Assembly: GCA_040751955.1 (NCBI GenBank)
Contig: JBFMFY010000007.1
Location: forward strand, 23,949-87,948
Direction of reading: 5' to 3'
DNA: 64,000 bases
Source of the DNA: Bacteroidota bacterium
Lineage (GTDB): Bacteria; Bacteroidota; Ignavibacteria; UBA10030; UBA8401
Both the position numbers and the translations under genes were made by a program. The notes beneath the pieces were generated by a model. That model did no database searches. It was not told where the DNA came from and saw only the letters and a program-made list of their open reading frames with translations. Shown piece by piece: positions 14,164 through 58,506 of the stretch; positions within the stretch are counted from its first letter, which is position 1; each line of letters begins with the position of its first letter.

Positions 14164-14177
14164 TTTACGGCTGAAAC

Positions 14178-17208: not shown

Positions 17209-17215
17209 AAATTGG

Positions 17216-17300: not shown

Positions 17301-17325
17301 GATTGATAACGAAAGCAAAATACCA

Positions 17326-18378: not shown

Positions 18379-18382
18379 TGCG

Positions 18383-19771
18383 ATGAAACAATTTGAATCG
18401 ATTGATGTTGGCATTCTAAAAAAATACTCCGGTCAAGGACCGCGCTACACAAGTTATCCCACTGCGCCTCTCTTTTCTTCCTCTTTCGGTCCAAAGGAAT
18501 ACAGAGAAGAGATCGCAAAGACAAATACGGACGGAAGCAGCGCCGACCTTTCCCTGTATTTTCATTTCCCGTACTGCGATACACTCTGCTATTTCTGCGG
18601 CTGCACAATGCTGGTCACGCACGATCACAACAATATTGTCAACTATAATAAGTTTCTTAAAAAAGAGATCGAAATGGTTTCGCCGATGATTTCTCCGAAT
18701 CGTACGGTGTCACAGTTGCACTGGGGGGGCGGAACGCCGTCGTACCAGGAGCCGGAGGAAATTCGTAACATCGGTTCGTTCATTAAAAATCATTTTCACT
18801 TTGCAGATGGTATCGAAGCAAGTGTCGAAATCGATCCCCGCGGATTGACATATGAACATATGAAAGCGCTGCGCGAAAGCGGATTTAACCGTGTAAGCAT
18901 GGGCGTGCAGGATTTCAACGAAAAAGTGCAGGAGGCGGTCAATCGGATTCAGCCTGAATCGATCACTCGCGCAGCAGTGGATTGGAGCCGCAATCTCGGT
19001 TTCTCCAGCATCAATCTCGATCTGATCTACGGTTTGCCGTACCAAACATTGAAAACATTTGAAGAAACGGTAGAGAAAGTAATAGATATTTCACCGGACA
19101 GAATTGCGGTCTTCAATTATGCGCACGTGCCGTGGCTGAAGCCGCATCAAAAAGTGATCAAGACGGAAACACTGCCGACGGTAGAAGAGAAACTGGAAAT
19201 TTTCAAAATGACGATTGAGAAACTTGTCGATGCAGGATACTGGAACATCGGCATGGATCATTTCGCGAAGGCGACCGATGAGATAACGATCGCACAGAAG
19301 AATAAAACAATGTACCGCAACTTCCAGGGATACTCGACCAAAGCAGGATGCGACCTGTACGGATTCGGGATGTCTGCGATCGGACATTTTCAAAATACAT
19401 ACCACCAGAACGTTAAAACGGTGACCGGATATTGCAACACAATCGGCGCGGGAAACTTTGCAACGACCGTCGGCTACAGAATGACTGCGGACGATCATAT
19501 ACGCAAAGATGTCATCATGCGGATCATGTGCGATATGGAATTAGACATTCCCGCAACCGAAGCAAAACACAAGATCAATTTCAGAGATTATTTTGCTTCG
19601 TCGTTCGATAAGCTTCAACCCTTTGTTGATGATGGTTTGGTAACAATTGAACCGACAAAGATTATCGTTCACGGGCTTGGCAGACTTGTTATCCGCAACA
19701 TCGCCATGGCATTTGATGCATACATTGACCAAATGATGAAAGAAAAACCGATCTTTTCAAAGACTGTGTAA
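18383..19771 (+). CDS. hemN: Oxygen-independent coproporphyrinogen III oxidase (radical SAM).
   Basis: The motifs 'YFHFPYCDTLCYFCGC' (CxxxCxxC) and 'GGGTPS' are present. The 462-aa length is typical of HemN rather than HemW. Confidence 0.9.
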   Translation: MKQFESIDVGILKKYSGQGPRYTSYPTAPLFSSSFGPKEYREEIAKTNTDGSSADLSLYFHFPYCDTLCYFCGCTMLVTHDHNNIVNYNKFLKKEIEMVSPMISPNRTVSQLHWGGGTPSYQEPEEIRNIGSFIKNHFHFADGIEASVEIDPRGLTYEHMKALRESGFNRVSMGVQDFNEKVQEAVNRIQPESITRAAVDWSRNLGFSSINLDLIYGLPYQTLKTFEETVEKVIDISPDRIAVFNYAHVPWLKPHQKVIKTETLPTVEEKLEIFKMTIEKLVDAGYWNIGMDHFAKATDEITIAQKNKTMYRNFQGYSTKAGCDLYGFGMSAIGHFQNTYHQNVKTVTGYCNTIGAGNFATTVGYRMTADDHIRKDVIMRIMCDMELDIPATEAKHKINFRDYFASSFDKLQPFVDDGLVTIEPTKIIVHGLGRLVIRNIAMAFDAYIDQMMKEKPIFSKTV

Positions 19772-19840
19772 AGAACTTCCGCACCTTTGCGAAGAGTAGG
19801 AAGGGATTATGAAAACCTTCGCATGGACCAGTATAAAAGA

Positions 19841-20836
19841 ATGAGCCCATACAAAGAAAGAATTGCCGTTGTACTTCTCCAACTCGGCGGACCAGACAAT
19901 CTTGCGGCGGTTGAACCATTTCTCTACAACTTGTTCTGCGACCCGGACATCATTGATATTCCCGGTGCATTCTTATTTCGCAAAAGGCTTGCACGAATGA
20001 TCTCTACCCGCCGGGCGCCGAAAGTGCAGGAGTTATACAAACGCATTGGCAATCGATCGCCGATTTTGAAGCAGACGAAATTGCAGGCAGACCGCTTGTT
20101 GGAAAGGCTGAGAGGAAAAGGATACACAGTTGATGTTCACATTGCGATGCGCTACTGGCATCCGTTGACCGATGTTGCCGTTCAAAACGTTTTCGATTCG
20201 AAACCCGACCGCATTGTTTTACTTCCGCTCTATCCCCACTATTGCAAGGCGACAACAGGATCAAGTGTGAATGAATGGAATCGAACAATCAAACGATTGA
20301 ACATGCCGGAGATACCAACAACGCTGATTGAACATTATTACGATCATCCGTTGTACATTGAAGCAATGGTGAATCGTATTCGTTGCGCACTCAATCGTGT
20401 TCCGAAGAATGAACGTTCCAAAGTGCAGATCGTGTTCAGCGCGCACGGCACACCGATGAAATTGGTGCGGGATGGCGATCCGTATTCGCATCACATCAGA
20501 AAAACGTATGAACTTGTTGTTGAAAAGGGGCAGTTCGGATTGCCGCATGCGCTCTGTTTTCAAAGCAAAGTTGGTCCGCAAAAATGGTTGACCCCGTCGC
20601 TTGTTGAAACGATTGATCGATTGGGACATGCAGGGGCAACACATCTTCTTGTCGTACCCATTGCATTTGTGACCGATCATATCGAGACGCTCTCCGAGAT
20701 CAACATCGAAGCACGCGATGAGGCGCTGAAATTAGGAGTGAAGTACTACGACATGATGCCGGCATTGCTGACGGAAGAGTCGTTCATTGAATGCCTCTCT
20801 GATCTTGTTGAGAAAAGATTATCGACACCACAATGA
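19841..20836 (+). CDS. hemH: Ferrochelatase.
   Basis: 'IAVVLLQLGGPDNLAAVEPFLYNLFCDPDIIDIP' is present. The start is taken at 'MSPYKERIAVV'. The ORF track extends to 19787. Confidence 0.9.
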   Translation: MSPYKERIAVVLLQLGGPDNLAAVEPFLYNLFCDPDIIDIPGAFLFRKRLARMISTRRAPKVQELYKRIGNRSPILKQTKLQADRLLERLRGKGYTVDVHIAMRYWHPLTDVAVQNVFDSKPDRIVLLPLYPHYCKATTGSSVNEWNRTIKRLNMPEIPTTLIEHYYDHPLYIEAMVNRIRCALNRVPKNERSKVQIVFSAHGTPMKLVRDGDPYSHHIRKTYELVVEKGQFGLPHALCFQSKVGPQKWLTPSLVETIDRLGHAGATHLLVVPIAFVTDHIETLSEINIEARDEALKLGVKYYDMMPALLTEESFIECLSDLVEKRLSTPQ

Positions 20837-22230
20837 CCTCTTCTCACATTACAATTATTGGCGGAGGAATTTCGGGGCTTGCAACAGCGTGGTGGCTGAA
20901 GAAACAGGGCTATTCCGTGGCGCTCTTTGAGAGAGATGCAGAGGTCGGCGGAACAATGAAGACAGTAATGAAGGAGGGCTGGCTGATCGAAACAGGTCCC
21001 AACAGTGCGCTTGAAACGACGCCCCTCTTTAAGATATTGTTTGCCGATCTCGGGATTGAGAAAGAGCTTGTCTATGCAAATCCTGCGGGAAAGAATCGTT
21101 ACATTCTGCGCGAAGGGAAATTGCATCCGTTGCCAATGTCTCCGGGAAAATTTTTGGCGTCAACGCTCTGGTCGCCGGCGGGAAAGATGCGCCTCTTGAA
21201 AGAACCGTTTGTCGGCAAAGCGGCAAAAGAAGAATCGATTGCGGAATTTGTCGTGCGAAGATTAGGAAGAGAATTTTTGGATTACGCGATCAACCCTTTC
21301 GTTGCGGGAGTTTTCGCCGGATCACCGGAAAAATTAAGCGTCCGCGCAGCGTTTCCAAAACTGTATGCACTGGAAGAGAAGTACGGCGGATTGATACGCG
21401 GGCAGATTGCCGGTGCACGCGACCGGAAGAAACGGGGAGAAGTTGCAAAAGACCGCGCGCAGATGTTTTCATTTAAAAGCGGAATGCAGACATTGCCCAA
21501 GGCGCTTGGCAAAGCACTCGGAGATTCTATACGGACGTCGTCTAGTGTGGACGGAATTGACCTCGGCGGGAACGGGAAAGGGAAAGGATACACACTCCGA
21601 TATGTATCAAATGGTTCCGCACACACACACTCGACGAACATCGTAGTTCTTGCCGTTCCTGCACCTGCCGCCGCCCGTTTCGTGCAGCCGTTCGATAGTT
21701 CGCTAGCACATGCGATACGGGAAATTTATTATCCGCCGGTAACGGAAGTATTTGTCGGATACAGATCAGAGCAGGTACGACTGCCGATGGACGGATTCGG
21801 TTTTTTGATACCCGAAAAGGAAAACAGGAAGATTCTCGGCGCGATCTGGTCATCGTCATTGTTTGAATGCCGCGCTCCCGATGGGTGCGCTGCCGTCACC
21901 GTTTTTGTGGGCGGATCCCGTCAACCGGAGAATGCGTTGATACACGACGGAGAATTGCTTTCAATGGTACACAATGAATTGAACGAGTTGATGCACATCA
22001 ACGGTGAACCGATCTTCACCCATATCACGCGATGGGAGAAGGCGATTCCGCAGTATCACCTCGGACATTTGCAGGTTACCGAACGTATGGCGCAATTCGA
22101 GCGACTGCACCCGGGGCTGTTTCTGTCCGGAAATTATCGCGGCGGCATCAGTGTCAGCGACTGTGTACTTCAGTCCGAAAAAATAAGTCAACAAATTATC
22201 GAATACATTGCTTCACAAAAAACAGAATGA
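20833..22230 (+). CDS. hemY: Protoporphyrinogen oxidase (FAD-dependent, HemY/PPOX type).
   Basis: The FAD motif '[17 protein letters not shown]' is present and the PPOX-like length is 465 aa. An ATGA overlap links it to hemH. Confidence 0.85.
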
Positions 22231-22237
22231 GGATAGT

Positions 22238-23224
22238 ATGTCACTAAAAATAGAATCAAACCAGCGCCTTCGCCGGTTAAGAATGAAACCGGCATTTCGC
22301 GACATGGTGCGCGAAACGGAACTGTCGCCGAAAGATTTCATCTACCCTTTGTTTGTTGTTCCCGGAAAGAAATTCAAGAAAGAAGTCTCCTCCATGCCCG
22401 GCGTGTTCCAGCAATCGGTTGATGAACTTGTGAAAGATTGTGCAGAGACGTATTCAATGGGAATTCCCGCCGTCATTCTGTTCGGTATTCCCGAACACAA
22501 AGACGATGTTGGCAGCGGAGCGTACGACGAAAACGGTATTGTGCAGCAGGCAGTACGGGCGCTGAAGAAAGATGTTCCCGGACTTGTCGTCATCACCGAC
22601 GTTTGCCTGTGCGAGTACACCTCGCACGGCCATTGCGGCATCGTGCAGGGAGACGAAATTGTGAATGACGCTTCGGTAGAGTTGCTGACGAAGGAAGCGC
22701 TCACGCACGCCCGGGCAGGCGCGGATATCATCGCACCGTCAGATATGTTCGACGGACGCATCGGCGCAATCCGCACGGTGCTGGATGAACATCATTTCCA
22801 CAACATTCCTATCATGTCGTACGCGGCAAAGTATGCATCGGGATTTTACGGACCGTTCCGCGAAGCCGCGGAGAGCACGCCGAAGTTCGGCGACCGTCGT
22901 TCGCATCAGATGGATCCCGCAAACAGCGATGAAGCAATCCGCGAAGTCAAACAAGATTTGGCTGAGGGTGCCGACATCGTGATGGTGAAACCTGCGCTTC
23001 CGTATCTCGATATTATCCGCCGCGTGAAAGACACATTCAGAGTTCCAACCGCGGCGTACAATGTGAGCGGTGAGTACGCGATGATCAAAGCGGCGGGTCG
23101 CAACGGATGGATTGATGAAGAGCGGGTAATGATGGAGACACTTCTGGGGATCAAACGCGCCGGCGCCGATATGATTTTGACGTACTTTGCCAAAGATGCC
23201 GCCAAAGTGCTTGCAAGAAAGTAA
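22238..23224 (+). CDS. hemB: Porphobilinogen synthase (delta-aminolevulinate dehydratase).
   Basis: The protein starts '[41 protein letters not shown]'. The active-site lysine region is '[12 protein letters not shown]'. An RBS 'aggat' lies upstream of ATG 22238. Confidence 0.92.
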
Positions 23225-23320
23225 GTTACCACTCTCGTTGTTGTTCGACAGTTTAACAGTTGAACTGGTTACTGTCCGAGAGTTGAACTCTCGGACAACA
23301 TAAGATTGCAAACACAACAC

Positions 23321-23372
23321 TATAGTCATGCTGAGCAAGTCCGCCGTAGGCGGACGCGTCGAAGCATATCCC
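23321..23372. repeat. Nested-palindrome repeat copy between hemB and hemL.
   Basis: The sequence is tatAGTCATGCTGAGCAAg-tccgccgtaggcgga-cGCGTCGAAGCAT. Confidence 0.6.
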
Positions 23373-23379
23373 AAAAACT

Positions 23380-24675
23380 ATGAACACAAAAACATCAGAT
23401 GCATTATTTCAGCGTGCACTGCAAAAAATTCCCGGCGGAGTGAATTCTCCGGTACGCGCATTCAAATCGGTGGGACGAAATCCGGTCTTCATTAAAAAAG
23501 CGCAAGGCTCAAAACTGTGGGATGTTGACGGGAACGAATACATTGATTATGTCGGCTCATGGGGACCGATGATTCTCGGTCATGCACATCCGGCAATTCT
23601 CGATGCAGTGCAGAAAGCTGCGATTGACGGGACAAGTTTCGGTGCGGCAACGGAGCGCGAAGTGGAAATGGCGGAACTGATCTGTTCCATCATGCCGTCC
23701 ATCGAAATGGTGCGTATGGTAAATTCCGGCACAGAAGCGACAATGAGTGCGATCCGGCTGGCGCGCGCGTTCACAGGGAAAGAAAAGATCATCAAGTTTG
23801 AAGGATGCTATCACGGACATGCAGATTCTTTTTTGATCAAAGCAGGTTCCGGCGCAATGACTTTCGGCGTGCCGGACAGTCCGGGCGTTCCCGCCTCAAT
23901 CGCCGGCGCAACATTGACTGCGCGGTACAATGACCTTGCGTCGGTAGAAAAATTGTTCGGTGAATATTCCGGACAGGTTGCAGGAATAATTGTTGAACCG
24001 GTTGTCGGGAACATGGGGTGCATTCCTCCTGATAAAGGATTTCTGGAAGGATTACGGAATCTGTGTGCGCAGCACAAAGCATTGTTCATTATGGATGAAG
24101 TGATGACAGGATTCCGCGTAGCACTCGGCGGCGCGCAGCAATTGTACGGCGTTTCACCGGACATTACAACGCTGGGAAAAATCATCGGCGGAGGCTTGCC
24201 GGTGGGTGCATACGGCGGGAAAAAAGAAATTATGCAAATGGTTGCGCCCAGCGGACCGATGTATCAGGCAGGAACATTATCGGGGAATCCGCTGGCGATG
24301 GCAGCAGGGATCGCAATGCTGACGATGTTGAAAAAAGATTCTTCCATCTATACCACATTGGAAAATCTTTCATCGAAATTGGAACATGGGATCGCCGATG
24401 TTGCAAAGCGATTTCAACTTCCGTTGATGCAAAATCGAGTCGGTTCCATGTTCACGCTCTTCTTTACGCAGGGAACCGTGAAAGATTATGATACCGCAAA
24501 GACTTCGAACATAACACTATTCGGAAAATATTTTAACGAAATGCTGGACCGCGGAATTTATCTTGCGCCGTCGCAATTCGAAGCGGCATTTATGTCCGCT
24601 GCGCACACTGAAAGTGACATCGACCGTACCCTGACGGCAGCGGAAGCATCGTTGAAGAGTGTCTTTGGAAAGTGA
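23380..24675 (+). CDS. hemL: Glutamate-1-semialdehyde 2,1-aminomutase.
   Basis: '[23 protein letters not shown]' and '[15 protein letters not shown]' are present. Confidence 0.95.
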
Positions 24676-24718: not shown

Positions 24719-24778
24719 ACCATAGATGTACTGACAAAAACAGGCGTGATGAATCTTGTTGAGCGAGGGATTTTTTTG

Positions 24779-24851
24779 TGTCCCCAACAAGATTCGAACT
24801 TGTGTCTGGAGCTTGAGAAACTCCCGTCCTAGGCCTCTAGACGATAGGGAC
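24779..24851 (-). tRNA. tRNA-Glu: tRNA-Glu, anticodon CUC.
   Basis: The minus-strand sequence reads GTCCCTATCGTCTAGAGGCCTAGGACGGGAGTTTCTCAAGCTCCAGACACAAGTTCGAATCTTGTTGGGGACA. It shows the typical tRNA-Glu D-arm 'CGTCTAGAGGCCTAGGAC' and T-loop 'GTTCGAATC', and folds into a cloverleaf with a 7-bp acceptor stem. CCA is not encoded. Confidence 0.85.
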
Positions 24852-49784: not shown

Positions 49785-50177
49785 TTGAGGGAAAGGAGAG
49801 TGTGCGTTGTGTTTAAAATCTCAAATATTCTGCTAATTTTCTTTCTGTTCCTTTTCATTCCTGGCTGCTCTGCTTCTCGAAAAACGGAATCAAATCTCAA
49901 TCTCGTCGAAATGCGCTGGGTGAAACATGAGGGGAGTGCGAGTGCGCAATCAATTATCCTCACATTGGAAAATGCCGACACCGTCCGAGTGACGATCAAG
50001 AACAGCAGCGGCGATCCTGTTGCACAAGAGTATGTTACGGTGCTCAACTTCGGCGCGTATCGTCTTGAAAGCACGTTTGCTCCGCTCGTACCCGGCGCAT
50101 ACTTTGTTGATGTACGAACAAGCAATGATAATTTTGTTCGGTATATATCAGTAACGGATCTCAGGCAAAATCCCTAA
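49785..50177 (+). CDS. Hypothetical small lipoprotein.
   Basis: A lipobox ('FIPGCSAS') follows a hydrophobic leader. No domain was recognised. The start is uncertain. Confidence 0.35.
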   Translation: MRERRVCVVFKISNILLIFFLFLFIPGCSASRKTESNLNLVEMRWVKHEGSASAQSIILTLENADTVRVTIKNSSGDPVAQEYVTVLNFGAYRLESTFAPLVPGAYFVDVRTSNDNFVRYISVTDLRQNP

Positions 50178-50378: not shown

Positions 50379-51353
50379 ATGAGAACACGTTTTCTTTTTT
50401 TCATATCTATCGTATTGATTGCAGGTTGTGTTGACGATGCACCGCGGGATAACCCGCTTGACCCGGATTCTCCGGCTTATGTCAGGTCGGGAAGCGTTAC
50501 AGGAGTGATCAAAATCGCAAATCAATCGACCGCCATTGCCGGTGCAACGATTACCGATCTTGCCGAAAATATTTTCGTTAAGTCCGATACGCTCGGATAT
50601 TTTGTGTTCAATCACCTTCCGTCCGGCACGCATACGTTTGTCTGCACAAAAGAGAATTTCACGAACGATACGTTTCAAGTCGAGATCCGGGACCGCGCAT
50701 CGACGCATGTTGTCCGCTCACTCAACGGCGCGCCGGTTGTCCTCTCACAAAATATTCTCACCCGGAAGATCGATTACGTCTCATTCAGTCCGAAATATTT
50801 TGTTGACATAGTTGCGGAAGTCAACGACCCGAACAGTTTTCTTGACCTTGATTCAGTTTGGTTCAGTGTTGTCGATACAATCTTTTTTCCTCTTAAACCC
50901 GTTGCGGGAACAAATACGTTCATTACAACGATCTACAAGAATGAACTTCCCACGAATACAATCCAGTGGCTTGTCAAGAAGCAGCTTCACATAGTATCAA
51001 GAGATCGACAATTTGCCGTCAGCATCAGCGATCCGTTTTTTGTCTCGCGGATTATTGAGAATACGTCAACTCCAATCTTTCCTTCACAAAATACACTGAA
51101 TACAGATTCAATTTATTTTCGATGGAGTCCCCCGGATATTACATTTAATTACACAAGTACCGTGACCGTGTATGAGGCTGGGACTGAAAATGTCGTGGTG
51201 TCGTACTCGGGCGTAAATTCATTTTATGAAAGGTATCCCACGGATGGATCTTTTCTTCATCTGGAGCCGAGTAACTATTTTTGGACAATATCTCTTGTCG
51301 ATGATTTCGGAAATTATTCCAGGTCGAAAGAATCATACTTCACGGTGAAATGA
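50379..51353 (+). CDS. Hypothetical lipoprotein with carboxypeptidase-regulatory / Ig-like beta-sandwich repeats.
   Basis: The leader 'MRTRFLFFISIVLIAGCVDD' contains a lipobox. Confidence 0.45.
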   Translation: MRTRFLFFISIVLIAGCVDDAPRDNPLDPDSPAYVRSGSVTGVIKIANQSTAIAGATITDLAENIFVKSDTLGYFVFNHLPSGTHTFVCTKENFTNDTFQVEIRDRASTHVVRSLNGAPVVLSQNILTRKIDYVSFSPKYFVDIVAEVNDPNSFLDLDSVWFSVVDTIFFPLKPVAGTNTFITTIYKNELPTNTIQWLVKKQLHIVSRDRQFAVSISDPFFVSRIIENTSTPIFPSQNTLNTDSIYFRWSPPDITFNYTSTVTVYEAGTENVVVSYSGVNSFYERYPTDGSFLHLEPSNYFWTISLVDDFGNYSRSKESYFTVK

Positions 51354-52825
51354 TGGAACAGAAAGACAACTTCAACGCACTGTACGATATTACAAAAACG
51401 ATCAATTCCATCCTCGATCCGAATGATCTGTTGGAAAAAGTATTGGAGATCGCAATGACACATCTTTCCGCCGAGCGGGGATTCGTGATGCTCTCCGACC
51501 AGAATGCGGAACTCGGATACACTGTCGTTGCATTTAAGAATTTCACCTCTAAAAAAGCAGGGAATGAGTTCGCCGGTTCATCGTCTGTCGTAAAAACCGT
51601 GCTCGATTCGGGCGAGCCGGTGCTGACCTTCGACGCAATGAGCGACGAACGGTTCGAGTCGTCGGTCAGCATCATGGCGCAAAAGATCCTTTCTATTATT
51701 TGCATTCCGTTGCGCGCCGGAGAACGGATCACAGGTGCCGTCTATCTCGACAGCAGTAAATCGCGCAAAGCATTCACGGACGACGCACTGAAATTCCTGA
51801 CGATCTTCGGGAATCTTGCCGCCATCGCTATCGAGAATGCACAGCAATACTCGCTGCTGCAGGCTGAAAATGTGCGCCTGAAAAACGAAGTCGATGTCAA
51901 CCATTTGTTCGGGAACATGATCGGCACCAGCGAAAAATGGATGAAGGCATTGGAGATCGCTCACCGCGTGCTTGATGTTGATGCTGCCGTGTTAATCACG
52001 GGCGAAAGCGGGACGGGAAAAGAACTCGTTGCGCGGGCGATCCATGACAACGGCACTCGAAAAGGAAAACCATTCGTTGCTGTGAATGCATCGGCATTGC
52101 CGGAAAATCTTATGGAAAGCGAACTCTTCGGATATATGAAGGGCTCGTTCACAGGCGCAAATAGCGATAAAAAAGGGTTGATAGAGGTTGCCAATGGCGG
52201 CACGTTGTTTCTTGATGAGATCGGGGATCTGCCGCTGAATCTGCAGGCAAAAATTCTGCGCTTGCTGCAGGAAAAGGAGTATAGGAGAGTCGGTGACACG
52301 AAAAATAAAGTTGCAGATATTCGCATCATTGCAGCGACTAATAAAAATCTCGAAGCCGAAGTGAAAGCGGGAAAGTTCAGGGATGATCTTTATTTCCGGC
52401 TGAACGTAATTGATATCCATTTACCGCCGCTGCGTGAACGGAGGGATGATATCCCATTACTTGCAAAACATTTTCTGAAGAAGGCAGCGGAAAGCCACAA
52501 ACGCTCTGTTGATAGCATCCATCCCGATGCAATGCAGATACTGCTTGCCAACCAGTGGAAAGGAAATGTGCGTGAGTTTCAGAATGTCATCGAGCGTGCG
52601 GTCGTGCTCTGCCGCGGCAATCAATTGACCAAAGAGGATTTTGTATTCAATGCCGGAGATTCCTCTGCGCTGCAAAAGAATTCCATGACTCTTGCCGATT
52701 TTGAACGGCAGATCATTGAAGCGACATTGAAGGAGATGGATGGAAACCGCACGCGTACAGCGGAAAGGCTTGGTGTGTCGCTGCGGTGGCTGCAATACCG
52801 GTTAAAGGAATGGGGAAGCGAGTAA
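51350..52825 (+). CDS. Sigma-54-dependent transcriptional activator (GAF, AAA+ sigma54-interaction domain, Fis-type HTH).
   Basis: The N-terminal domain is GAF. The AAA+ domain carries Walker A 'GESGTGKE', the 'GAFTGA'-equivalent 'GSFTGA', 'LFLDEIGD' and 'RLNV'. The C-terminal HTH is 'RTAERLGVSLRWLQYRLK'. Confidence 0.9.
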   Translation: MMEQKDNFNALYDITKTINSILDPNDLLEKVLEIAMTHLSAERGFVMLSDQNAELGYTVVAFKNFTSKKAGNEFAGSSSVVKTVLDSGEPVLTFDAMSDERFESSVSIMAQKILSIICIPLRAGERITGAVYLDSSKSRKAFTDDALKFLTIFGNLAAIAIENAQQYSLLQAENVRLKNEVDVNHLFGNMIGTSEKWMKALEIAHRVLDVDAAVLITGESGTGKELVARAIHDNGTRKGKPFVAVNASALPENLMESELFGYMKGSFTGANSDKKGLIEVANGGTLFLDEIGDLPLNLQAKILRLLQEKEYRRVGDTKNKVADIRIIAATNKNLEAEVKAGKFRDDLYFRLNVIDIHLPPLRERRDDIPLLAKHFLKKAAESHKRSVDSIHPDAMQILLANQWKGNVREFQNVIERAVVLCRGNQLTKEDFVFNAGDSSALQKNSMTLADFERQIIEATLKEMDGNRTRTAERLGVSLRWLQYRLKEWGSE

Positions 52826-52832
52826 AACGTAT

Positions 52833-53268
52833 CACACAAAGGCACAAAGGACTATGTCTGAAAATGAGATTGCAAAGATCGCCGTTGATGTTGCCTATCA
52901 CTTGCATTCCGATTTGGGTCCCGGATTACTAGAATCTGTCTATCAAGAGTTACACGTTGATAAATTGAGAGGTCGTGGTTTAACTGTGGAAACAGAAGTT
53001 GACCTTCCTATCGTCTATGATGGTAAAAGATACAAATCCACTTTTCGTATTGATATTTTAATTGAGAAAAAAATTGTTATTGAATTAAAGTCGGTGGAGA
53101 ATCTTTTACCTGTTCACAAAAAACAATTGCTCACCTATTTAAAATTAAGTAATCTTCGGTTGGGTTTGCTCATTAATTTTGGCTCGCCGTATTTTAAAAG
53201 CGGAATTGAGCGCATTATAAACGCTACGTTGGAGTGACATTTTATTTTTTCCTTTGTGTCTTTGTGTG
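52833..53268 (+). mobile_element. Cassette carrying a GxxExxY (PD-(D/E)xK-fold) gene, bracketed by 18-bp inverted repeats.
   Basis: The left arm, CACACAAAGGCACAAAGG at 52833-52850, sits directly after the activator stop. The right arm, CCTTTGTGTCTTTGTGTG at 53251-53268, is its reverse complement with 17 of 18 matches. It sits directly before the kinase gene. Confidence 0.55.
52854..53237 (+). CDS. GxxExxY family protein (PDDEXK_3 nuclease-fold).
   Basis: The family-defining motif 'GPGLLESVYQ' is present. The 127-aa length is typical. Confidence 0.75.
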   Translation: MSENEIAKIAVDVAYHLHSDLGPGLLESVYQELHVDKLRGRGLTVETEVDLPIVYDGKRYKSTFRIDILIEKKIVIELKSVENLLPVHKKQLLTYLKLSNLRLGLLINFGSPYFKSGIERIINATLE

Positions 53269-53273
53269 AGATA

Positions 53274-54794
53274 ATGAACAGCGAACAATTGAGAATAGAG
53301 CAGAAGATCAGCGAGAGTGGTACGACGACAGTGTATCGTGCCTTCGACGTCGCACTTCATCGTCCCGTGCTGCTGAAAGTGCTGCACAAACATCTGGCAC
53401 ACGATGAAGATGTCCGTGCCCGATTTATTCGTGAAGCACGTGCGTGTGCAGCACTTCGGAGCGAGCACATCGTGCAGGTGTACGATTTGACCGACGTGGA
53501 GCAATCTCCCGCCATCGTGATGGAGTTTGTCGAGGGAAGTTCGCTGAAGGATCTCATTGCAAGCGGCGAAGGGAAAGGATTTGACGCTGCACGGAAAACC
53601 GCCCTCCATGTTCTGCGCGCACTCGCAACGGCGCATGAGAAAAAAATTATCCATCGGGATATTAAGCCGGGCAATATTCTGGTGAGTGTGGATGGGACAA
53701 TGAAAGTAACAGACTTCGGGCTTGCATCGTTCGCGCTTTCACCGACGGTGACGATGGAAGGAATGGTGCTCGGTACACCGGCGTATATGGCTCCCGAGCA
53801 AGTGCGCGGCGACGATGTTGACGAACGGACCGATCTTTTTGCGCTCGGCGCAACATTGGTGGAAGTATTGAGCGGCGAAAGGATCTTTGAAGGTTCAACC
53901 TACACTGAATGCATGAAAAAAGTCCTTGCATTCAAGGAACCGGAGTTGGAAAAATACATTCCGCATTCTTCTCAGGAATTTGTTCAGTTCCTCAAGGGAC
54001 TGATGCATCCCGACAAGAACAAGCGGCTTGAGTCAGCGAAAGAGGCGTTGTCGGCGTTCGGCGAAAAGAAATCGAGCGTCTTTCTCCGTCCGGATGCAGT
54101 GCAATTATCGAAACGGAGAGCATTCATACCGGTTCTCGGCGGTGCCGGTGTCATTCTGCTCTTTATCCTTTTTGGATGGATGAAACTCTCACAACAACCG
54201 TCAGGAAAAGAACAACGGTCGAACTCTAATATATCCGGTTCGATCCAGTCTGAAGACACAGTGCAGAAGTTGGAGCAATCGCACAACGCAGTGCTCCAAT
54301 CGCCGGTGCTTCAAACATTCAATTCGCGCGATACCGGATCAAAGGAAGTACCGTTGCGCAATGTTGCAAAAGATTCGGGAAAAGTATTTCTTGCAAGTAC
54401 GCCGTGGGCAAAAGTGTACATTGATAATCGTCTGATCGGCGAAACACCGATTGCTACGCCGTTCATTCTTGCTGCCGGTCAGCATACCGTGATGTTCATG
54501 AATCCATCGTTCGAACCGATCATGAAGACGATCACCGTCGAACCGGGGAAAGAGATGACCGTGACCGGAAATTTTTTTGAACACGTCGGTTATGTTATGT
54601 GCACCGTCATTCCGTGGGCTGATGTGTATATTGATGAACAAAAGAAAGACACAACCCCGCTGGAAAAACCGATCATGATAGCAGCAGGAAAACATTCCGT
54701 TCGGTTCAAAAATCCGGCATTCATCGACATAGTTAGAGAGATCACCGTTGCACCGAAAGAGACACTGCAGATTACAATTTCATTTATCGAATGA
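53274..54794 (+). CDS. Serine/threonine protein kinase with C-terminal TM segment and PEGA-like extracytoplasmic domains.
   Basis: The catalytic loop is 'HRDIKPGNILV'. 'DFG' and 'APE' are present. 'TPWAKVYIDNRLIGETP' and 'IPWADVYIDEQKKDTTPL' are PEGA-like repeats. Confidence 0.85.
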   Translation: MNSEQLRIEQKISESGTTTVYRAFDVALHRPVLLKVLHKHLAHDEDVRARFIREARACAALRSEHIVQVYDLTDVEQSPAIVMEFVEGSSLKDLIASGEGKGFDAARKTALHVLRALATAHEKKIIHRDIKPGNILVSVDGTMKVTDFGLASFALSPTVTMEGMVLGTPAYMAPEQVRGDDVDERTDLFALGATLVEVLSGERIFEGSTYTECMKKVLAFKEPELEKYIPHSSQEFVQFLKGLMHPDKNKRLESAKEALSAFGEKKSSVFLRPDAVQLSKRRAFIPVLGGAGVILLFILFGWMKLSQQPSGKEQRSNSNISGSIQSEDTVQKLEQSHNAVLQSPVLQTFNSRDTGSKEVPLRNVAKDSGKVFLASTPWAKVYIDNRLIGETPIATPFILAAGQHTVMFMNPSFEPIMKTITVEPGKEMTVTGNFFEHVGYVMCTVIPWADVYIDEQKKDTTPLEKPIMIAAGKHSVRFKNPAFIDIVREITVAPKETLQITISFIE

Positions 54795-55573
54795 CCATCT
54801 TCGTGAAAATATTATTTCTCGTCCCTCTCTTTTTCCTCTCACTTTTCTCTCAGGAGCTGTTATCAATTGATTCTACGCTCCATCAGATAGAATCTCTCTA
54901 TAACAATGCGCGGTACATTGATGCAGAACTTGAAGCCAGGAGATTATCTGAAGAAGTAATCATTTCGGATTCGGTGAAGGTGCAGGTTGAAAAATGGATC
55001 GCCTTTTCGCTTATTGCGCAGGGAAGAACTATTCCTGCGCGTGAGCGGTTCGTTTCTCTTCTCTCGATCAATCCGGATTTTGAGCTCGATCCGGTTCTTA
55101 CGTCGCCGAAGATCTTATCTGTATTCAACGACGCTAAAGTGAAATATCGTTCGAATAAGAAATTCCAATCCGACTCTTTAAAAGACGAAAGGGAGCGTAT
55201 TGTGCAAACAATTACATACCGCACAGCGCTTTTTCCGGGATGGGAACAACTTCATCAAGGGAGGATGACCAGCGGTTCACTTTTTTTTGGCGCCGGTATC
55301 GCAACACTTGGAGCGGGAATCACATTTGAGATACTTCGCGCGAATGCAAGGGAGGAATATTTAAAAGCAACCATTCCTTCTGATATCGCTGCAAAATACA
55401 ATTCGTACAATTCGTACCGCAAATCGGAAATTTATTCATTCATCGGTTTTGCCATTGTCTATTTCTCTTCGGAGATAGATGTGTTTACAAACAATGATTC
55501 ACAATCACTGTCTATAATGCCGTCAAACGATCCTTTGTTGGGGCAGTCAATCACACTTTCCGTCAAATTCTGA
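54791..55573 (+). CDS. Hypothetical membrane-anchored protein.
   Basis: An N-terminal hydrophobic leader is present. The ORF overlaps the kinase stop by 4 nt. No domain was recognised. Confidence 0.4.
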   Translation: MTIFVKILFLVPLFFLSLFSQELLSIDSTLHQIESLYNNARYIDAELEARRLSEEVIISDSVKVQVEKWIAFSLIAQGRTIPARERFVSLLSINPDFELDPVLTSPKILSVFNDAKVKYRSNKKFQSDSLKDERERIVQTITYRTALFPGWEQLHQGRMTSGSLFFGAGIATLGAGITFEILRANAREEYLKATIPSDIAAKYNSYNSYRKSEIYSFIGFAIVYFSSEIDVFTNNDSQSLSIMPSNDPLLGQSITLSVKF

Positions 55574-55661
55574 CATGCATAGGCTGCATTCAGCCCCGCA
55601 GGTTTTGCGTAGTACTTGTAGTAAAATCCTTAAAACCACGAAGATTTTTCTGGTTTTTCAA

Positions 55662-55677
55662 TGGCACACGGATTGCG
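55662..55677 (+). promoter_or_regulatory. Candidate sigma-54 (RpoN) promoter TGGCAC-N5-TTGC, about 155 nt upstream of the T9SS cargo gene.
   Basis: The sequence is atGGCACacggaTTGCgg. The GG and GC dinucleotides have exact -24/-12 spacing. Confidence 0.5.
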
Positions 55678-55833
55678 GTTCAATGCAGCGTCGTTCTATC
55701 ATTCTTCAACGTTTCACTCAAACCGGGCTGTATGCTTCCCCCTTTTGCATGCAGTCCGGAGTATATCAACCGCCGCAATGGCGATGTGAGATTTTCAAAA
55801 GTACATCATAACATTCTCTTGGGAGGATTCACT

Positions 55834-58446
55834 ATGAAACGTTTTCTTACTGCTTTTATGTTGATGCTGCTTAGTACGGCAGCGAGCTTTGCGCAGACGG
55901 AAGATCCTTCGTTTAAATTGTTTGCGACGAGGGTTGATCTTACGGGCGAAGTAAAGCTGATCTGGACCACTCCCGCAGGCGCACCTGCAAATACTTCTTA
56001 CGAATTGTATCGCGCCAAAGTCTCAGACTCCACAACATTCACTTTGGTAACAACGATTTCCGATACTGTTTACATCGACAAAATCCCGACACCGATTACT
56101 ACGATATCGAATAGTTATGCGTACTATGTGTATGCAAAATTCAACGCAACGATTTTGAAAACGAATGTAATTATTCTCCCTGTTCCGGGAATACCGCCGA
56201 TCGGTTCATTCCGGTTGGAGGGTAAGATCGACAGCGGAAAAGTAAAACTTGTCTGGCAAAAACCACCGGTCGATGTCGCCGTTTCATATTATCTTGTCTT
56301 TCGCAGTATGGTATCGGGTGAAAACCCGGCGATTGTCCAAATTGACTCAACGGCAAATCAATGGTCAATTACAGACTTACCGCCGCTTCCGGCTATATTC
56401 GCCGATTGGAAATTTTACTTTATTGTGAAAGCCAAACTTGCTACAGGTGAAATTTTAACCAGCACTACTCTTCAGTTGACCTATTCTACAAGGCCGCCTC
56501 ATGACGATGTGAAATTTATTTCCATTCCTCCGAAGTACGGACAGGCAGGAAAGAAGTATGAATATACCGCCAAAGCTGTTTCATCAGACTCGTCTGCAGT
56601 TATTCGCTACTCCGGCTGGGCTAGCCAGGGATTGTTGAATGTCGTTGTTCCCGAATTCAAAATCGATTCCGTCACTGGTGTCGTTAATTGGACGCCGGCA
56701 TCGAAGGGATGGTATCACATCATCATCAATGCGAAATCGAATAAAGGGGGGCATGCAAAACAGGAATTTGCCGTTGCAATTACCGGCGGTAATGGCACTG
56801 TTCAGGGTAAAGTAACCGATACGATGAGCGCAGGTATTCCAAGAGTACTCATTGAAGCCTTTAAAGTGGAAAACAGCACTGTATTCTCATTTGCTTATTC
56901 CACATTGACCGATGAGAACGGAAACTATCGCATTGAACGGGTCGATCCCGGCTCATATAAACTGCGTGCGTCCGCACCGGGGCGGTATGAAAGCCAGTGG
57001 TATGACGGTGTGAAGGAAGCAGGGCAGGCAACTGTGATCTCTGTAGCAGATTCGCCCGCTGTGACTATCGCAAACTTTAAATTACGCGGTGGTGCCAATG
57101 TACGTCCAAAGGTGACTGTGTCGGGTTCAGTGAAAGATACGGCAGGATTTGCCATCGTTGACAGAAATTGCCGGGTGGTTTTTGTTCGTGCAGAGTTTGC
57201 GTTGAATTTTGGCGGCGGGTTGAACCTTTCCGGCGACAACATGCGGAAGTTTTTTGAGTTGAACATGCACGGCGATTTCCGACTTGAGGGAAATTCTGAA
57301 TATGTGTTCAAGACGAAGACCGATTCACTCGGGAATTACAAGATACAACTTCCGCACGGCGCGTATATTGCATTCGCTCGTGCAAAGGGATACGAGACTG
57401 AATTTTACAATGAACAGTCGAGCATTCTGACGGCGGATATCGTCAGAGTACCTGATCCGCGCATGCCTCCAATGGATCCACCGATTAATTTCACACTTGC
57501 ACCGTTGCCGCCGGTCGTTCTTGGCGAAATCAGCGGCGCAGTGATTGATTCTGTAAAAGATATTTTTGTTCCGGCGCGTGTGCTGGCAATCCGGGATGGC
57601 TGGAGATTCAACGACCACCATCGTGTTTCGCGTGTGTATGTTACGGATACGGATTCTACAGGGTATTACAAGTTCGAAGATCTGCTCCCCGGCACGTATG
57701 TGGTGATGGCTGTGCCGCTCGGAAACTATGCACCGGCATTTTATTCCCACGATACATCCAATATGAGATGGAAACGTGCAACAAAGATCGTCATCAACGG
57801 CAACAGCGTGGATGGAATAGATATTTACGTTCATCCGTTTGGTCCGTCTGCACAAGGGTACACCGGCATTGTTGGTACTGTTAACTATTCCAGCAGCATG
57901 GGTGGTGGAAATATGCAGGGTGGCGTAAAATCTGGTGCAGTCGTCTATGCGTATCGCGGCGGCGAGATTGCCGGATATGCCTTTACGAACGCAGAAGGTA
58001 ATTACGCGATCACAGGACTCTCTGCAGGATCGTACTCAGTGTTTGTTGACAAACCCGGCTACAATGAATCGGTTGTTGTCAATGCCGAGGCAGGATACAC
58101 TATCTCAGGAACACCAGTGAGCGGTACGGCAGACTTTATGCTGAGTCCAACAAGTGTCACTGTTGATCGTACGGTTCAACCGACTCAGTTTGTGCTCGAC
58201 CAGAATTATCCGAATCCGTTCAACCCGAATACCACAATCAGCTATTCGCTGCCGAATGCTGAGAATGTAACACTGAAAGTGTACGATCTTCTTGGTAAAG
58301 AGGTAACGACACTTGTCAGCGGCTACCAGCAATCGGGGAAATATACGGTGACGTTCAACGCGGCGCAGTTATCGAGCGGCGTCTATTTCTATCGGCTGGA
58401 ATTCGGAAAGAATACATTTGTTAAAAAAATGATCCTGATGAAATAA
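55834..58446 (+). CDS. Large secreted protein with FnIII/Ig-like and carboxypeptidase-regulatory-like repeats and a C-terminal T9SS (Por) sorting domain.
   Basis: An RBS gggagga lies upstream of ATG 55834. The signal peptide is 'MKRFLTAFMLMLLSTAASFAQ'. The C-terminus 'NYPNPFNPNTTISYSLP...VYFYRLEFGKNTFVKKMILMK' is a TIGR04183-type T9SS tail. Confidence 0.8.
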   Translation: MKRFLTAFMLMLLSTAASFAQTEDPSFKLFATRVDLTGEVKLIWTTPAGAPANTSYELYRAKVSDSTTFTLVTTISDTVYIDKIPTPITTISNSYAYYVYAKFNATILKTNVIILPVPGIPPIGSFRLEGKIDSGKVKLVWQKPPVDVAVSYYLVFRSMVSGENPAIVQIDSTANQWSITDLPPLPAIFADWKFYFIVKAKLATGEILTSTTLQLTYSTRPPHDDVKFISIPPKYGQAGKKYEYTAKAVSSDSSAVIRYSGWASQGLLNVVVPEFKIDSVTGVVNWTPASKGWYHIIINAKSNKGGHAKQEFAVAITGGNGTVQGKVTDTMSAGIPRVLIEAFKVENSTVFSFAYSTLTDENGNYRIERVDPGSYKLRASAPGRYESQWYDGVKEAGQATVISVADSPAVTIANFKLRGGANVRPKVTVSGSVKDTAGFAIVDRNCRVVFVRAEFALNFGGGLNLSGDNMRKFFELNMHGDFRLEGNSEYVFKTKTDSLGNYKIQLPHGAYIAFARAKGYETEFYNEQSSILTADIVRVPDPRMPPMDPPINFTLAPLPPVVLGEISGAVIDSVKDIFVPARVLAIRDGWRFNDHHRVSRVYVTDTDSTGYYKFEDLLPGTYVVMAVPLGNYAPAFYSHDTSNMRWKRATKIVINGNSVDGIDIYVHPFGPSAQGYTGIVGTVNYSSSMGGGNMQGGVKSGAVVYAYRGGEIAGYAFTNAEGNYAITGLSAGSYSVFVDKPGYNESVVVNAEAGYTISGTPVSGTADFMLSPTSVTVDRTVQPTQFVLDQNYPNPFNPNTTISYSLPNAENVTLKVYDLLGKEVTTLVSGYQQSGKYTVTFNAAQLSSGVYFYRLEFGKNTFVKKMILMK

Positions 58447-58473
58447 CAAGGAAGGGAAAATGCAGGAGAATAC

Positions 58474-58506
58474 AAAGGCGGACATTTGTCCGCCTTTGTT
58501 ATTTCA
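58474..58506 (+). terminator. Rho-independent terminator downstream of the T9SS cargo gene.
   Basis: The sequence is AAAGGCGGAC-attt-GTCCGCCTTT followed by GTTATTTC. Confidence 0.7.

What the first reader, a model, noticed from the sequence alone, without database searches (positions are those of the whole stretch)
55662..55677. RpoN-type promoter upstream of a T9SS-secreted giant protein, 3 kb downstream of a GAF-containing sigma-54 activator
The sequence atGGCACacggaTTGCgg has the canonical -24 GG and -12 GC elements with correct spacing. It lies about 155 nt upstream of the 904-aa T9SS cargo gene.

The only enhancer-binding protein in the window (GAF-AAA+-Fis, 51350-52825) is encoded just upstream. 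Between the two lie a Ser/Thr kinase with PEGA domains and a membrane protein. This suggests a local circuit: a small-molecule (GAF) signal, then the EBP, then sigma-54-dependent expression of a surface or secreted protein.
Basis: seen in the sequence. Interest (0 to 1): 0.5.

Follow-up and report, generated by a model that had tools for sequence, protein, structure and literature searches.

The report
Conserved sigma-54 promoter for T9SS cargo
A textbook sigma-54 promoter with two activator-binding sites upstream sits in front of a secreted surface-protein gene. The promoter and the neighbouring activator and kinase genes are conserved in 13 related uncultured bacteria, so the switch is very probably real but of a well-known kind.

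Summary
The motif is real. TGGCACACGGATTGC at 55662-55676 (+) is the only exact TGGCAC-N5-TTGC in the 64 kb window (0.17 expected by chance).

Thirteen orthologous loci (cargo identity 81-41%) all keep the same five-gene cassette: lipoprotein, GAF-AAA+-HTH activator (EBP), Ser/Thr kinase with PEGA domains, a ~260-aa membrane protein, an intergenic region, then the T9SS cargo gene.

In every locus:
- The best sigma-54 match upstream of the cargo gene is at the homologous place. T-26, G-25, G-24, A-22, T-15, T-14 and G-13 are invariant.
- Two palindromes YGCA-N5-TGCR lie about 20 bp apart, centred near -106 and -85.
- Phased A/T tracts lie between the palindromes and the promoter.

The EBP is the best-conserved protein of the cassette. 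Its DNA-binding helix is almost invariant and it keeps G(S/A)FTGA.

Corrections:
- The protein is 870 aa, starting at ATG 55834. It is neither 904 aa nor giant.
- A PD-(D/E)XK gene also lies between the activator and the kinase.
- The conserved kinase, not only the GAF domain, is a likely input.

An extra finding is a conserved two-hairpin 5' leader of about 145 nt, with no Rfam match.

rpoN and the transcription start could not be checked. Overall this is a new member of a known kind.

The parts
50379..51353 (+). Gene 1 of the conserved cassette: 324-aa lipoprotein (signal peptide ending in the lipobox LIAGC) with a CarboxypepD_reg-like domain.
   Evidence: Pfam. Sequence inspection. Present in all 11 loci that reach this far upstream.
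51350..52825 (+). Sigma-54 enhancer-binding protein, 491 aa: GAF, AAA+ with GSFTGA at residue 265, and a Fis-type HTH_8 domain.
   Evidence: Pfam score 236 bits for PF00158. Closest NCBIfam model is NifA, but below its cut-off. 63-92% identical among orthologues, with a near-invariant HTH.
52854..53237 (+). PD-(D/E)XK_3 gene. It is not part of the conserved cassette, being absent in 9 of the 11 loci that span this site.
53256..54794 (+). Hanks-type Ser/Thr kinase, 512 aa: cytoplasmic kinase domain (HRD, DFG and APE motifs present), one transmembrane segment (residues 287-305), and two extracytoplasmic PEGA domains.
   Evidence: Adjacent to the EBP in all loci.
54791..55573 (+). Gene 4: 260-aa protein with a signal peptide and a transmembrane segment near residues 164-182. 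No Pfam family; weak TssQ/TPR-like match below cut-off.
   Evidence: Conserved in all loci.
55576..55588 (.). Upstream activator site 1: palindrome TGCA-TAGGC-TGCA (consensus YGCA-N5-TGCR), centred at about -106.
   Evidence: Present at the same place in 13 of 13 loci.
55597..55609 (.). Upstream activator site 2: palindrome CGCA-GGTTT-TGCG, centred at about -85 and 21 bp from site 1.
   Evidence: The tandem arrangement is unique in the window. In 1.5 Mb of related loci the two sites plus the promoter occur only at cargo promoters.
55623..55658 (.). Phased A/T tracts: AAAA at 55623 and 55632, TTTTT at 55645 and 55654. Inferred to be an intrinsic DNA bend between the activator sites and the promoter.
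   Evidence: Conserved A/T runs at -65..-62, -55..-52, -46..-41 and -33..-28 in the anchored 13-locus profile.
55662..55677 (+). Sigma-54 -24/-12 promoter TGGCACACGGATTGCG. The predicted transcription start is near 55688.
55690..55697 (+). Leader 5' box GTCGTTCT at +3 to +10. Invariant in the 10 loci that have a long leader.
55723..55759 (+). Leader hairpin P1: 13-bp stem with an 11-nt loop.
   Evidence: 100% paired in clade A, with 2 compensatory and 3 wobble changes. A hairpin at the equivalent position in clade B shows covariation.
55771..55783 (+). Leader hairpin P2: CGCC-GCAAU-GGCG.
55821..55827 (+). Ribosome-binding site GGGAGGA.
   Evidence: An AGGAGG-like site is conserved before the ATG in the alignment.
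55834..58446 (+). T9SS cargo gene, 870 aa: Sec signal peptide, three CarboxypepD_reg domains, and a type-A T9SS C-terminal sorting domain at residues 792-867.
58472..58499 (+). Perfect 13-bp inverted repeat followed by TATTT. Probable terminator of the single-gene cargo transcript.

Best explanation
The site is a functional sigma-54 (RpoN) promoter of a single-gene transcription unit, running from about 55688 to the hairpin at 58472-58499. The unit encodes an 870-aa surface protein exported by the type IX secretion system (T9SS).

**Proposed mechanism.**
1. RNA polymerase with sigma-54 binds TGGCAC-N5-TTGC as a closed complex.
2. The GAF-AAA+-HTH activator encoded 2.8 kb upstream binds as dimers to the two palindromes YGCA-N5-TGCR, centred at about -106 and -85.
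3. The phased A/T tracts between those sites and the promoter bend the DNA, so the assembled AAA+ ring touches sigma-54 through its GSFTGA loop.
4. ATP hydrolysis opens the promoter.

**Input.** Activator activity is set by its N-terminal GAF domain. The always-adjacent transmembrane Ser/Thr kinase, whose two PEGA domains face the periplasm, may also act on it. In that case envelope or extracellular information, rather than only a cytoplasmic small molecule, would decide when the surface protein is made.

**Leader.** The transcript starts with a conserved leader of about 145 nt: a 5' box GUCGUUCU followed by two hairpins. This probably adds a post-transcriptional layer of control (stability or translation).

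**Shown:** the motif, its conservation, the two upstream sites, the synteny, and the domain content.
**Inferred:** sigma-54 dependence, which protein binds the palindromes, the bend, the role of the kinase, and the function of the leader.
For: - **Motif.** It is the only exact consensus match in the window and lies in the 260-nt intergenic region facing the cargo gene.
- **Promoter conservation.** In 13 orthologous loci (cargo identity 81-41%), the top sigma-54 weight-matrix hit within 450 nt upstream of the cargo ATG is the homologous site: 10.9-18.1 bits, against 6.2 bits or less for the runner-up in 12 loci. T-26, G-25, G-24, A-22, T-15, T-14 and G-13 are invariant while neighbouring columns drift.
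- **Upstream sites.** All 13 loci carry exactly two YGCA-N5-TGCR palindromes at fixed distance from the promoter, 19-22 bp apart. The tandem is unique in the window. In 1.5 Mb of related DNA the composite of two sites plus promoter occurs only at these cargo promoters.
- **Bend.** Phased A/T tracts are conserved.
- **Synteny.** The five-gene cassette is kept while the outer flanking genes differ.
- **Activator.** The EBP is the most conserved protein of the cassette, its HTH GNRTRTAERLGVSLRWLQYRLKEW is almost invariant, and G(S/A)FTGA is kept in 11 of 11.
- **No competitor.** No sigma-70-like promoter and no terminator were found in the intergenic region. A strong hairpin follows the cargo stop codon.
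- **Leader.** Structure is supported by 89% paired cells and 7 of 16 pairs with compensatory changes, against 28-55% paired in slid controls. Clade A is 100% paired.
- **Precedent.** In Flavobacterium psychrophilum a sigma-54-type promoter upstream of the operon for the T9SS adhesin SprB was validated by reporter mutagenesis (PMC9723704).
Against: - No rpoN gene is in the window or in any fetched locus. Its presence in this genome is assumed from the intact EBP.
- The -12 C is T in four orthologues and A in one.
- No transcription start or expression data exist.
- No terminator separates gene 4 from the cargo gene, so read-through from the upstream genes could add to or replace this promoter.
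- Nothing shows that this particular EBP binds the palindromes, or that the kinase acts on the EBP.
- The kinase's PEGA region and gene 1 show no specific sequence similarity to the cargo protein.
- The two most distant loci (L095, L096) have a short leader without the box and hairpins, and a third divergent locus (L089) lacks the box. The leader is therefore not essential to the circuit.
Confidence: 0.72

Rival explanations
1. The conserved block is not used by sigma-54. The cargo gene is transcribed by read-through from the upstream four-gene operon or from an unrecognised housekeeping-type promoter, and the TGG...TTG and palindrome elements are operator sites for another DNA-binding protein.
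For: - There is no terminator between gene 4 and the cargo gene.
- The -12 C varies in 5 of 13 loci.
- Promoter rules for this lineage are unknown.
- rpoN was not seen.
Against: - The invariant positions (T-26, GG, A-22, TTG at -15 to -13) are exactly those of the sigma-54 consensus, at the canonical spacing.
- An EBP with an intact sigma-54-contact loop is always encoded in the cassette.
- No sigma-70-like site is in the intergenic region.
- The region between hairpin P2 and the ribosome-binding site, where a proximal promoter would lie, is poorly conserved.
Confidence: 0.12
2. The sigma-54 promoter is real, but its main product is a small regulatory RNA (5' box, P1, P2; about 100 nt). The RNA ends or is processed after P2, and cargo expression is only a secondary read-through.
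For: - The box-P1-P2 module is the most conserved part downstream of the promoter.
- It is a self-contained unit: L086 tolerates a 136-nt insertion right after it.
- P2 is followed by an A/U-rich stretch.
Against: - P2 is not followed directly by a U-run, and no terminator was detected there.
- Three divergent loci (L089, L095, L096) keep the promoter, the upstream sites and the cargo gene without the box-and-hairpin leader.
- The module is always in cis, in sense orientation, in front of the cargo gene.
Confidence: 0.08
3. The promoter is sigma-54-dependent but is activated by a different EBP encoded elsewhere. The neighbouring EBP regulates other targets.
For: No binding data exist. The rest of the genome is unseen. 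EBPs can act at a distance.
Against: - EBP and cargo gene are syntenic in all 11 loci that reach far enough upstream, across wide divergence, while the outer flanks change.
- The near-invariant HTH matches the invariant half-sites.
- The two-site motif is found nowhere else in 1.5 Mb of related DNA.
Confidence: 0.06
4. The motif is a chance match with no function.
For: An exact match turns up in 16% of shuffled windows. An even better-scoring site at 13917 lies inside a coding region.
Against: The site is conserved at the homologous position in 13 of 13 loci, while flanking intergenic bases diverge.
Confidence: 0.02

Closest known systems
Classical enhancer-dependent sigma-54 promoters: glnAp2 with NtrC and nifH with NifA in Enterobacteria and Klebsiella (textbook knowledge, recalled from memory)
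   Same: - -24 GG and -12 GC core.
- Two dyad-symmetric activator sites about 80-140 bp upstream, on the same face of the helix.
- DNA bending between enhancer and promoter.
- An activator built as sensory domain, AAA+ with GAFTGA, and C-terminal Fis-type HTH. NifA also has an N-terminal GAF domain.
   Different: - The site sequence is YGCA-N5-TGCR, not TGT-N10-ACA (NifA) or TGCACC-N5-GGTGCA (NtrC).
- The bend appears intrinsic (A/T tracts) rather than made by IHF.
- The target is a secreted surface protein, not nitrogen metabolism.
- The EBP scores below the NifA equivalog cut-off (400 against 528 bits).
- The partner is a Ser/Thr kinase, not NifL or NtrB.
Flavobacterium psychrophilum SM4 (sigma-54-type) promoter upstream of remFG-sprCDBF (PMC9723704)
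   Same: A member of Bacteroidota in the broad sense uses a -24/-12 promoter to drive a T9SS-secreted cell-surface protein (SprB). This fits the view that sigma-54 controls the bacterial exterior (PMC3162934).
   Different: - The cargo family is different.
- It is an operon with a second, non-sigma-54 promoter.
- The passages read mention no dedicated adjacent EBP-kinase cassette or defined upstream sites.
- That promoter was tested experimentally; this one was not.
Myxococcus xanthus networks of Ser/Thr kinases and FHA-domain EBPs feeding sigma-54 promoters (own knowledge: Jelsbak, Givskov and Kaiser 2005; not retrieved here)
   Same: Hanks-type kinases, instead of histidine kinases, are thought to be the input of sigma-54 activators.
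   Different: There the EBPs have FHA phosphothreonine-binding domains. Here the EBP has a GAF domain, no phospho-recognition domain is evident, and the kinase-EBP link rests on adjacency only.
PorX/PorY/SigP control of T9SS genes in Porphyromonas gingivalis (own knowledge)
   Same: Dedicated regulation linked to T9SS.
   Different: That system is a two-component system plus an ECF sigma factor acting on genes of the secretion machinery. It is not sigma-54 with an EBP acting on one cargo gene.

Membership tests
Sigma-54 (-24/-12) promoter | GG and GC doublets separated by 10 nt within TGGCAC-N5-TTGCW | tested here: met
   TGGCACACGGATTGC at 55662-55676, an exact consensus match. Weight-matrix score 15.5 bits, second best in the window.
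Sigma-54 (-24/-12) promoter | The element is conserved at the homologous position upstream of orthologous genes | tested here: met
   13 of 13 loci. Seven core positions are invariant. The -12 C is kept in only 8 of 13.
Sigma-54 (-24/-12) promoter | The genome encodes sigma-54 (rpoN) | not testable with these tools
   No RpoN box in the window or in 1.5 Mb of fetched loci. Literature searches gave nothing for Ignavibacteria.
Sigma-54 (-24/-12) promoter | Transcription starts about 12 nt downstream of the GC and depends on rpoN and an EBP | not testable with these tools
   Needs 5'-end mapping and genetics. The only indirect support is that leader conservation begins at +3.
Bacterial enhancer-binding protein (NtrC/NifA superfamily) | AAA+ sigma-54 interaction domain (PF00158) with a GAFTGA loop | tested here: met
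   PF00158 at 236 bits. GSFTGA at residue 265. G(S/A)FTGA in 11 of 11 orthologues.
Bacterial enhancer-binding protein (NtrC/NifA superfamily) | C-terminal Fis-type HTH that binds dyad-symmetric upstream sites | tested here: inconclusive
   HTH_8 is present and nearly invariant. Conserved dyads are present at -106 and -85. Binding itself was not tested.
NifA (TIGR01817 equivalog) | Score above the curated cut-off (528.85 bits) | tested here: not met
   400.5 bits. The domain architecture is the same, but this is not NifA.
T9SS type-A cargo | N-terminal Sec signal peptide plus a C-terminal Por_Secre_tail domain (TIGR04183 / PF18962) | tested here: met
   PF18962 at 49 bits, residues 792-867. TIGR04183 at 51 bits against a cut-off of 23. 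N-terminus reads MKRFLTAFMLMLLSTAASFAQT.
T9SS type-A cargo | The genome encodes the T9SS machinery (PorK/L/M/N, SprA, PorV and others) | not tested
   None of these genes is in the window. Many other genes with the C-terminal sorting domain occur in related loci.
Hanks-type Ser/Thr kinase | Pkinase domain with HRD, DFG and APE motifs | tested here: met
   PF00069 at 162 bits. HRDIKPGN, DFG and APE are visible in the sequence.
Any described RNA family (Rfam 15) for the leader | A match to a covariance model | tested here: not met
   No relevant hit even at E<=10 on 55400-56000. Only a tRNA reaches gathering score in the whole window.

The most novel reading that the evidence does not exclude
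The five-gene cassette would be a self-contained signalling device of a type not yet described. A transmembrane Hanks kinase with periplasmic PEGA domains, helped by the lipoprotein and the 260-aa membrane protein, would replace a histidine kinase as the input of a GAF-type sigma-54 activator. The output would be gated a second time by a new cis-regulatory RNA (5' box GUCGUUCU plus two hairpins) in the cargo mRNA. Together these would couple envelope sensing to production of one T9SS surface protein in Ignavibacteria-like bacteria.
Probability: 0.25. Interest if true: 0.6.

Novelty: new member of a known kind. Interest (0 to 1): 0.4.

Why it matters
- **A usable regulatory prediction.** It gives a precise prediction (promoter, two activator sites, cognate activator, transcript ends) for an uncultured Ignavibacteria-like lineage in which no promoter has been mapped.
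- **A wider pattern.** It extends to this group the idea that sigma-54 controls the cell exterior, with T9SS cargo as a target. The only experimental precedent found here is in Flavobacterium.
- **Something to test.** The strict pairing of the activator with a Ser/Thr kinase, and the conserved structured leader, are concrete handles for asking how such bacteria decide when to display a surface protein. The DNA parts are small enough to test in a heterologous host.
- **Limits.** It does not overturn anything known.

Tried and rejected
- **Genome scan.** The genome-contig scan with the full cargo alignment was wasted. The tool chose the generic T9SS tail peptide QNYPNPFN, so 79 of 80 loci were unrelated cargo genes.
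- **Exact-protein look-ups.** Those for the window's own EBP and cargo protein found nothing, so the assembly could not be named.
- **Rfam.** No family matches the leader.
- **Consensus folding.** RNAalifold on a plain MAFFT alignment of both leader clades recovered only P2.
- **Covariance model.** A model built from clade B finds clade A only weakly: L081 at E=0.01, and the window not at all. The two clades share architecture rather than sequence.
- **Folding energy.** Z-scores of the leaders are modest, -0.2 to -3.6.
- **Kinase senses the cargo by like-with-like domain contact.** No specific similarity exists between the PEGA region or gene 1 and the cargo protein. Rejected as unsupported.
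- **5' box pairs with codons 2-4 (AAACG) to mask the start codon.** Such pairing is possible in most loci, but both partners are invariant, so covariation cannot test it. Kept only as a low-confidence idea.
- **A leader peptide.** Rejected, because the leader alignments contain indels that do not preserve a reading frame.
- **Other sigma-54-like sites** at 13917 and 41571 lie inside coding regions and have no tandem activator sites.
- **rpoN.** Motif searches and literature searches gave no information for this lineage.

Full report
**1. Observation**

The + strand at 55661-55678 reads aaTGGCACACGGATTGCgg. GG is at 55663-55664 and GC at 55675-55676, with ten bases between them, as in the sigma-54 consensus TGGCAC-N5-TTGCW.

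It is the only exact TGGCAC-N5-TTGC in the window on either strand. The expected number is 0.17, and 16 of 100 shuffles gave at least one match. With one mismatch allowed there are 6 hits against 4.5 expected.

I scanned the window with a weight matrix that I wrote from memory of the published consensus. This site scores 15.5 bits, second only to a site inside a coding region at 13917. The match alone is therefore not decisive. Its position is what makes it interesting: it lies in the 260-nt gap between 55573 and 55834 and points at the next gene.

**2.

| Coordinates | Product | Evidence |
|---|---|---|
| 50379-51353 | 324-aa lipoprotein (lipobox LIAGC) with a CarboxypepD_reg-like domain | |
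| 51350-52825 | Activator (EBP): GAF, AAA+ (PF00158, 236 bits; GSFTGA at residue 265), HTH_8 | |
| 53256-54794 | Hanks Ser/Thr kinase: HRD, DFG and APE motifs, one transmembrane segment at 287-305, two C-terminal PEGA domains that must lie outside the cytoplasm | |
| 54791-55573 | 260-aa protein with a signal peptide and a transmembrane segment; no Pfam family | |
| 55834-58446 | Cargo protein | |

The cargo ORF found mechanically starts at 55732 (904 aa). The real start is ATG 55834.
- It is preceded by GGGAGGA.
- It opens a typical signal peptide, MKRFLTAFMLMLLSTAASFAQT.
- It gives an 870-aa protein identical to one NCBI annotates in a Bacteroidota metagenome-assembled genome (MAG).

The protein has three CarboxypepD_reg domains and a type-A T9SS sorting tail (PF18962; TIGR04183 at 51 bits against a cut-off of 23). 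It is an ordinary-sized, adhesin-like cargo protein, not a giant one.

The -12 C is 158 nt from ATG 55834.

The EBP is indeed the only one in the window.

A perfect 13-bp hairpin at 58472-58499 follows the cargo stop codon. No terminator or sigma-70-like promoter lies in the intergenic region.

**3. Comparative evidence**

A protein search found about 100 relatives of the cargo protein, in MAGs labelled Ignavibacteriales or Bacteroidota. I recovered DNA for 12 further distinct loci with cargo identity from 81% down to 41%.

Every locus that extends far enough upstream keeps the same order: lipoprotein, EBP, kinase, ~260-aa protein, an intergenic region of 163-401 nt, then the cargo gene. The genes outside this block differ; on one side or the other they include an epimerase, a histidine kinase with its response regulator, glnS, a B12-binding MerR regulator and DUF3160. 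The cassette is therefore the conserved unit. The PD-(D/E)XK gene is present only in the window and in L086/L087.

*Promoter.* In all 13 loci the best weight-matrix hit in the 450 nt upstream of the cargo ATG is the site homologous to 55662. Scores are 10.9-18.1 bits, and the runner-up is 6.2 bits or less in 12 loci. Anchored on that site, T-26, G-25, G-24, A-22, T-15, T-14 and G-13 are identical in 13 of 13. Positions -23 and -21 are C or T, and most neighbouring columns are variable. This is the conservation pattern expected of a sigma-54 promoter. One blemish remains: the -12 C is kept in 8 loci, is T in four (one subclade) and A in one.

*Upstream activator sites.* All 13 loci have exactly two palindromes YGCA-N5-TGCR at fixed distance from the promoter. 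In the window they are 55576-55588 (TGCATAGGCTGCA) and 55597-55609 (CGCAGGTTTTGCG). They are centred at about -106 and -85 and lie 19-22 bp apart, which is two helical turns. The spacer bases differ freely, so it is the half-sites that are under selection. The tandem occurs once in the window. In 1.5 Mb of fetched Ignavibacteria-like DNA, the composite of two palindromes plus TGG...TTG is found only at these cargo promoters.

*DNA between sites and promoter.* It carries conserved A and T runs at -65..-62, -55..-52, -46..-41 and -33..-28. In the window these are AAAA at 55623 and 55632 and TTTTT at 55645 and 55654. I read this as an intrinsic bend (inference).

*Activator.* The EBP is the best-conserved protein of the cassette, at 63-92% identity against 36-82% for the others. 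Its recognition region GNRTRTAERLGVSLRWLQYRLKEW is almost invariant, matching the invariant half-sites. G(S/A)FTGA is present in 11 of 11. Its closest curated family is NifA, with the same GAF-AAA+-HTH layout, but it scores below the cut-off (400 against 529 bits).

**4. Leader**

Conservation resumes right after the predicted start (about 55688). The octamer GTCGTTCT at 55690-55697 (+3 to +10) is invariant in the 10 loci that have a leader of about 145 nt. It is followed by two hairpins at equivalent positions.

- **Window clade (clade A).** P1 is 55723-55759 (13 bp) and P2 is 55771-55783. Every cell is paired. Five variable pairs all stay paired, two by double changes, and an invariant U-G pair fits only the + strand.
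- **Second clade of six loci (clade B).** The stems have different sequences. On a plain MAFFT alignment, 89% of cells pair and 7 of 16 pairs show changes on both sides. Sliding the partner by 1-3 columns drops pairing to 28-55%.
- **No known family.** No Rfam family matches even at E<=10.
- **Limits of the evidence.** The sample is small. A covariance model from one clade barely detects the other. Folding z-scores are modest. The two most distant loci, L095 and L096, have short leaders without these elements, and L089 lacks the box.

I regard the leader as a probable cis-acting RNA element of unknown role. It is an accessory to the promoter circuit, not required by it.

**5. Mechanism**

The most likely reading, with confidence about 0.7, is a standard enhancer-dependent promoter.
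1. RNA polymerase with sigma-54 sits on TGGCAC-N5-TTGC.
2. Dimers of the cassette's EBP occupy the two palindromes.
3. The bent A/T-tract DNA brings the AAA+ ring to the closed complex.
4. ATP hydrolysis opens the promoter.
5. A single-gene mRNA of about 2.8 kb runs to the hairpin at 58472.

The sensory step is inferred. However, the kinase is as tightly linked to the EBP as the cargo gene is, and its PEGA domains face the periplasm. An envelope-derived signal passed on by phosphorylation is therefore at least as plausible (confidence about 0.4). I found no sequence evidence that the kinase recognises the cargo protein itself.

**6. Rivals**

- Read-through, or another promoter, with the conserved elements serving a different protein: about 0.12.
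- The leader is the main product, as a small RNA: about 0.08.
- A different EBP is the cognate activator: about 0.06.
- Chance: about 0.02.

**7. Comparison with known systems**

Functionally this is the glnAp2/NtrC or nifH/NifA design, with a different operator sequence and a different input. A sigma-54-type promoter in front of a T9SS surface adhesin operon (remFG-sprCDBF) has been validated by reporter mutagenesis in Flavobacterium psychrophilum (PMC9723704). The general link between sigma-54 and the cell exterior is established (PMC3162934). Kinase-linked EBPs are known from Myxococcus (from my own knowledge) but use FHA domains.

I therefore file the finding as a new member of a known kind. 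The conserved kinase-EBP-cargo cassette and the unclassified leader are its only unusual features.

**8. What could not be tested**

- No RpoN box is in the window or in any fetched locus, and the literature searches were uninformative.
- There are no data on the transcription start, on sigma-54 or EBP dependence, on DNA binding, or on phosphotransfer.
- The decisive computations and experiments are listed under next steps.

Noticed in passing
window 55688-55833 (also L081, L082, L085, L086, L088, L091-L094): Conserved structured 5' leader: an invariant octamer GTCGTTCT at +3 to +10 followed by two hairpins with compensatory changes. It has no Rfam match and is absent from the three most divergent loci (L089, L095, L096).
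   Followed up: partly
window 52854-53237; L086 6862-7248: A PD-(D/E)XK_3 gene sits between the activator and the kinase in the window and, at the same site, in L086/L087 (76% amino-acid identity). The site is empty in the nine other loci that span it. This suggests either an old insertion lost repeatedly or a site-specific mobile gene.
   Followed up: partly
window 13917-13932 (+): TGGCATAGCGATTGCA scores higher than the focal site in the sigma-54 matrix. It lies inside a cytochrome-c-assembly ORF (13273-14163), 246 nt before hemA, and has no tandem activator sites nearby. It could be an intragenic sigma-54 site or chance.
   Followed up: no
window 9-3107 (+): A GH2-family glycosidase ORF carries a DUF559 (endonuclease-like) domain at residues 297-403, between its GH2 domains. 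This is an odd in-frame insertion or a gene fusion.
   Followed up: no
window 49785-50177 (+): A small lipoprotein-like ORF (lipobox IPGC) fills the 640-nt gap between the epimerase gene and the first cassette gene. The equivalent gap in L082 is only 120 nt.
   Followed up: no
L086 about 9870-10000: The leader of this orthologue has an insertion of about 136 nt between hairpin P2 and the ribosome-binding site. The box-P1-P2 module therefore tolerates being moved far from the start codon.
   Followed up: no
window 57514-57521; L081 about 10931; L085 about 11675: The leader octamer GTCGTTCT recurs inside the cargo coding sequence, where it encodes the conserved PVVL motif. This is possibly coincidence: there are 5 copies in the window against 2.3 expected.
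   Followed up: no
L085 16983-17876, L086 12659-13417, L087 6662-7552, L088 12716-13609, L089 12750-13658: A CarH-like MerR/B12-binding regulator is encoded convergently just downstream of the cargo gene in four of the orthologous loci (it lies further downstream in L085). It is absent from the window, where glnS follows.
   Followed up: no
window 58472-58499: A perfect 13-bp inverted repeat (ACAAAGGCGGACA/TGTCCGCCTTTGT) lies 26 nt after the cargo stop codon. It is a probable terminator that the simple terminator scan missed.
   Followed up: yes
window 13273-24675 and 24778-24851: A complete heme-biosynthesis gene row (hemA, C, D, E, N, H, Y, B, L) is followed by tRNA-Glu(CTC) on the opposite strand.
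   Followed up: no
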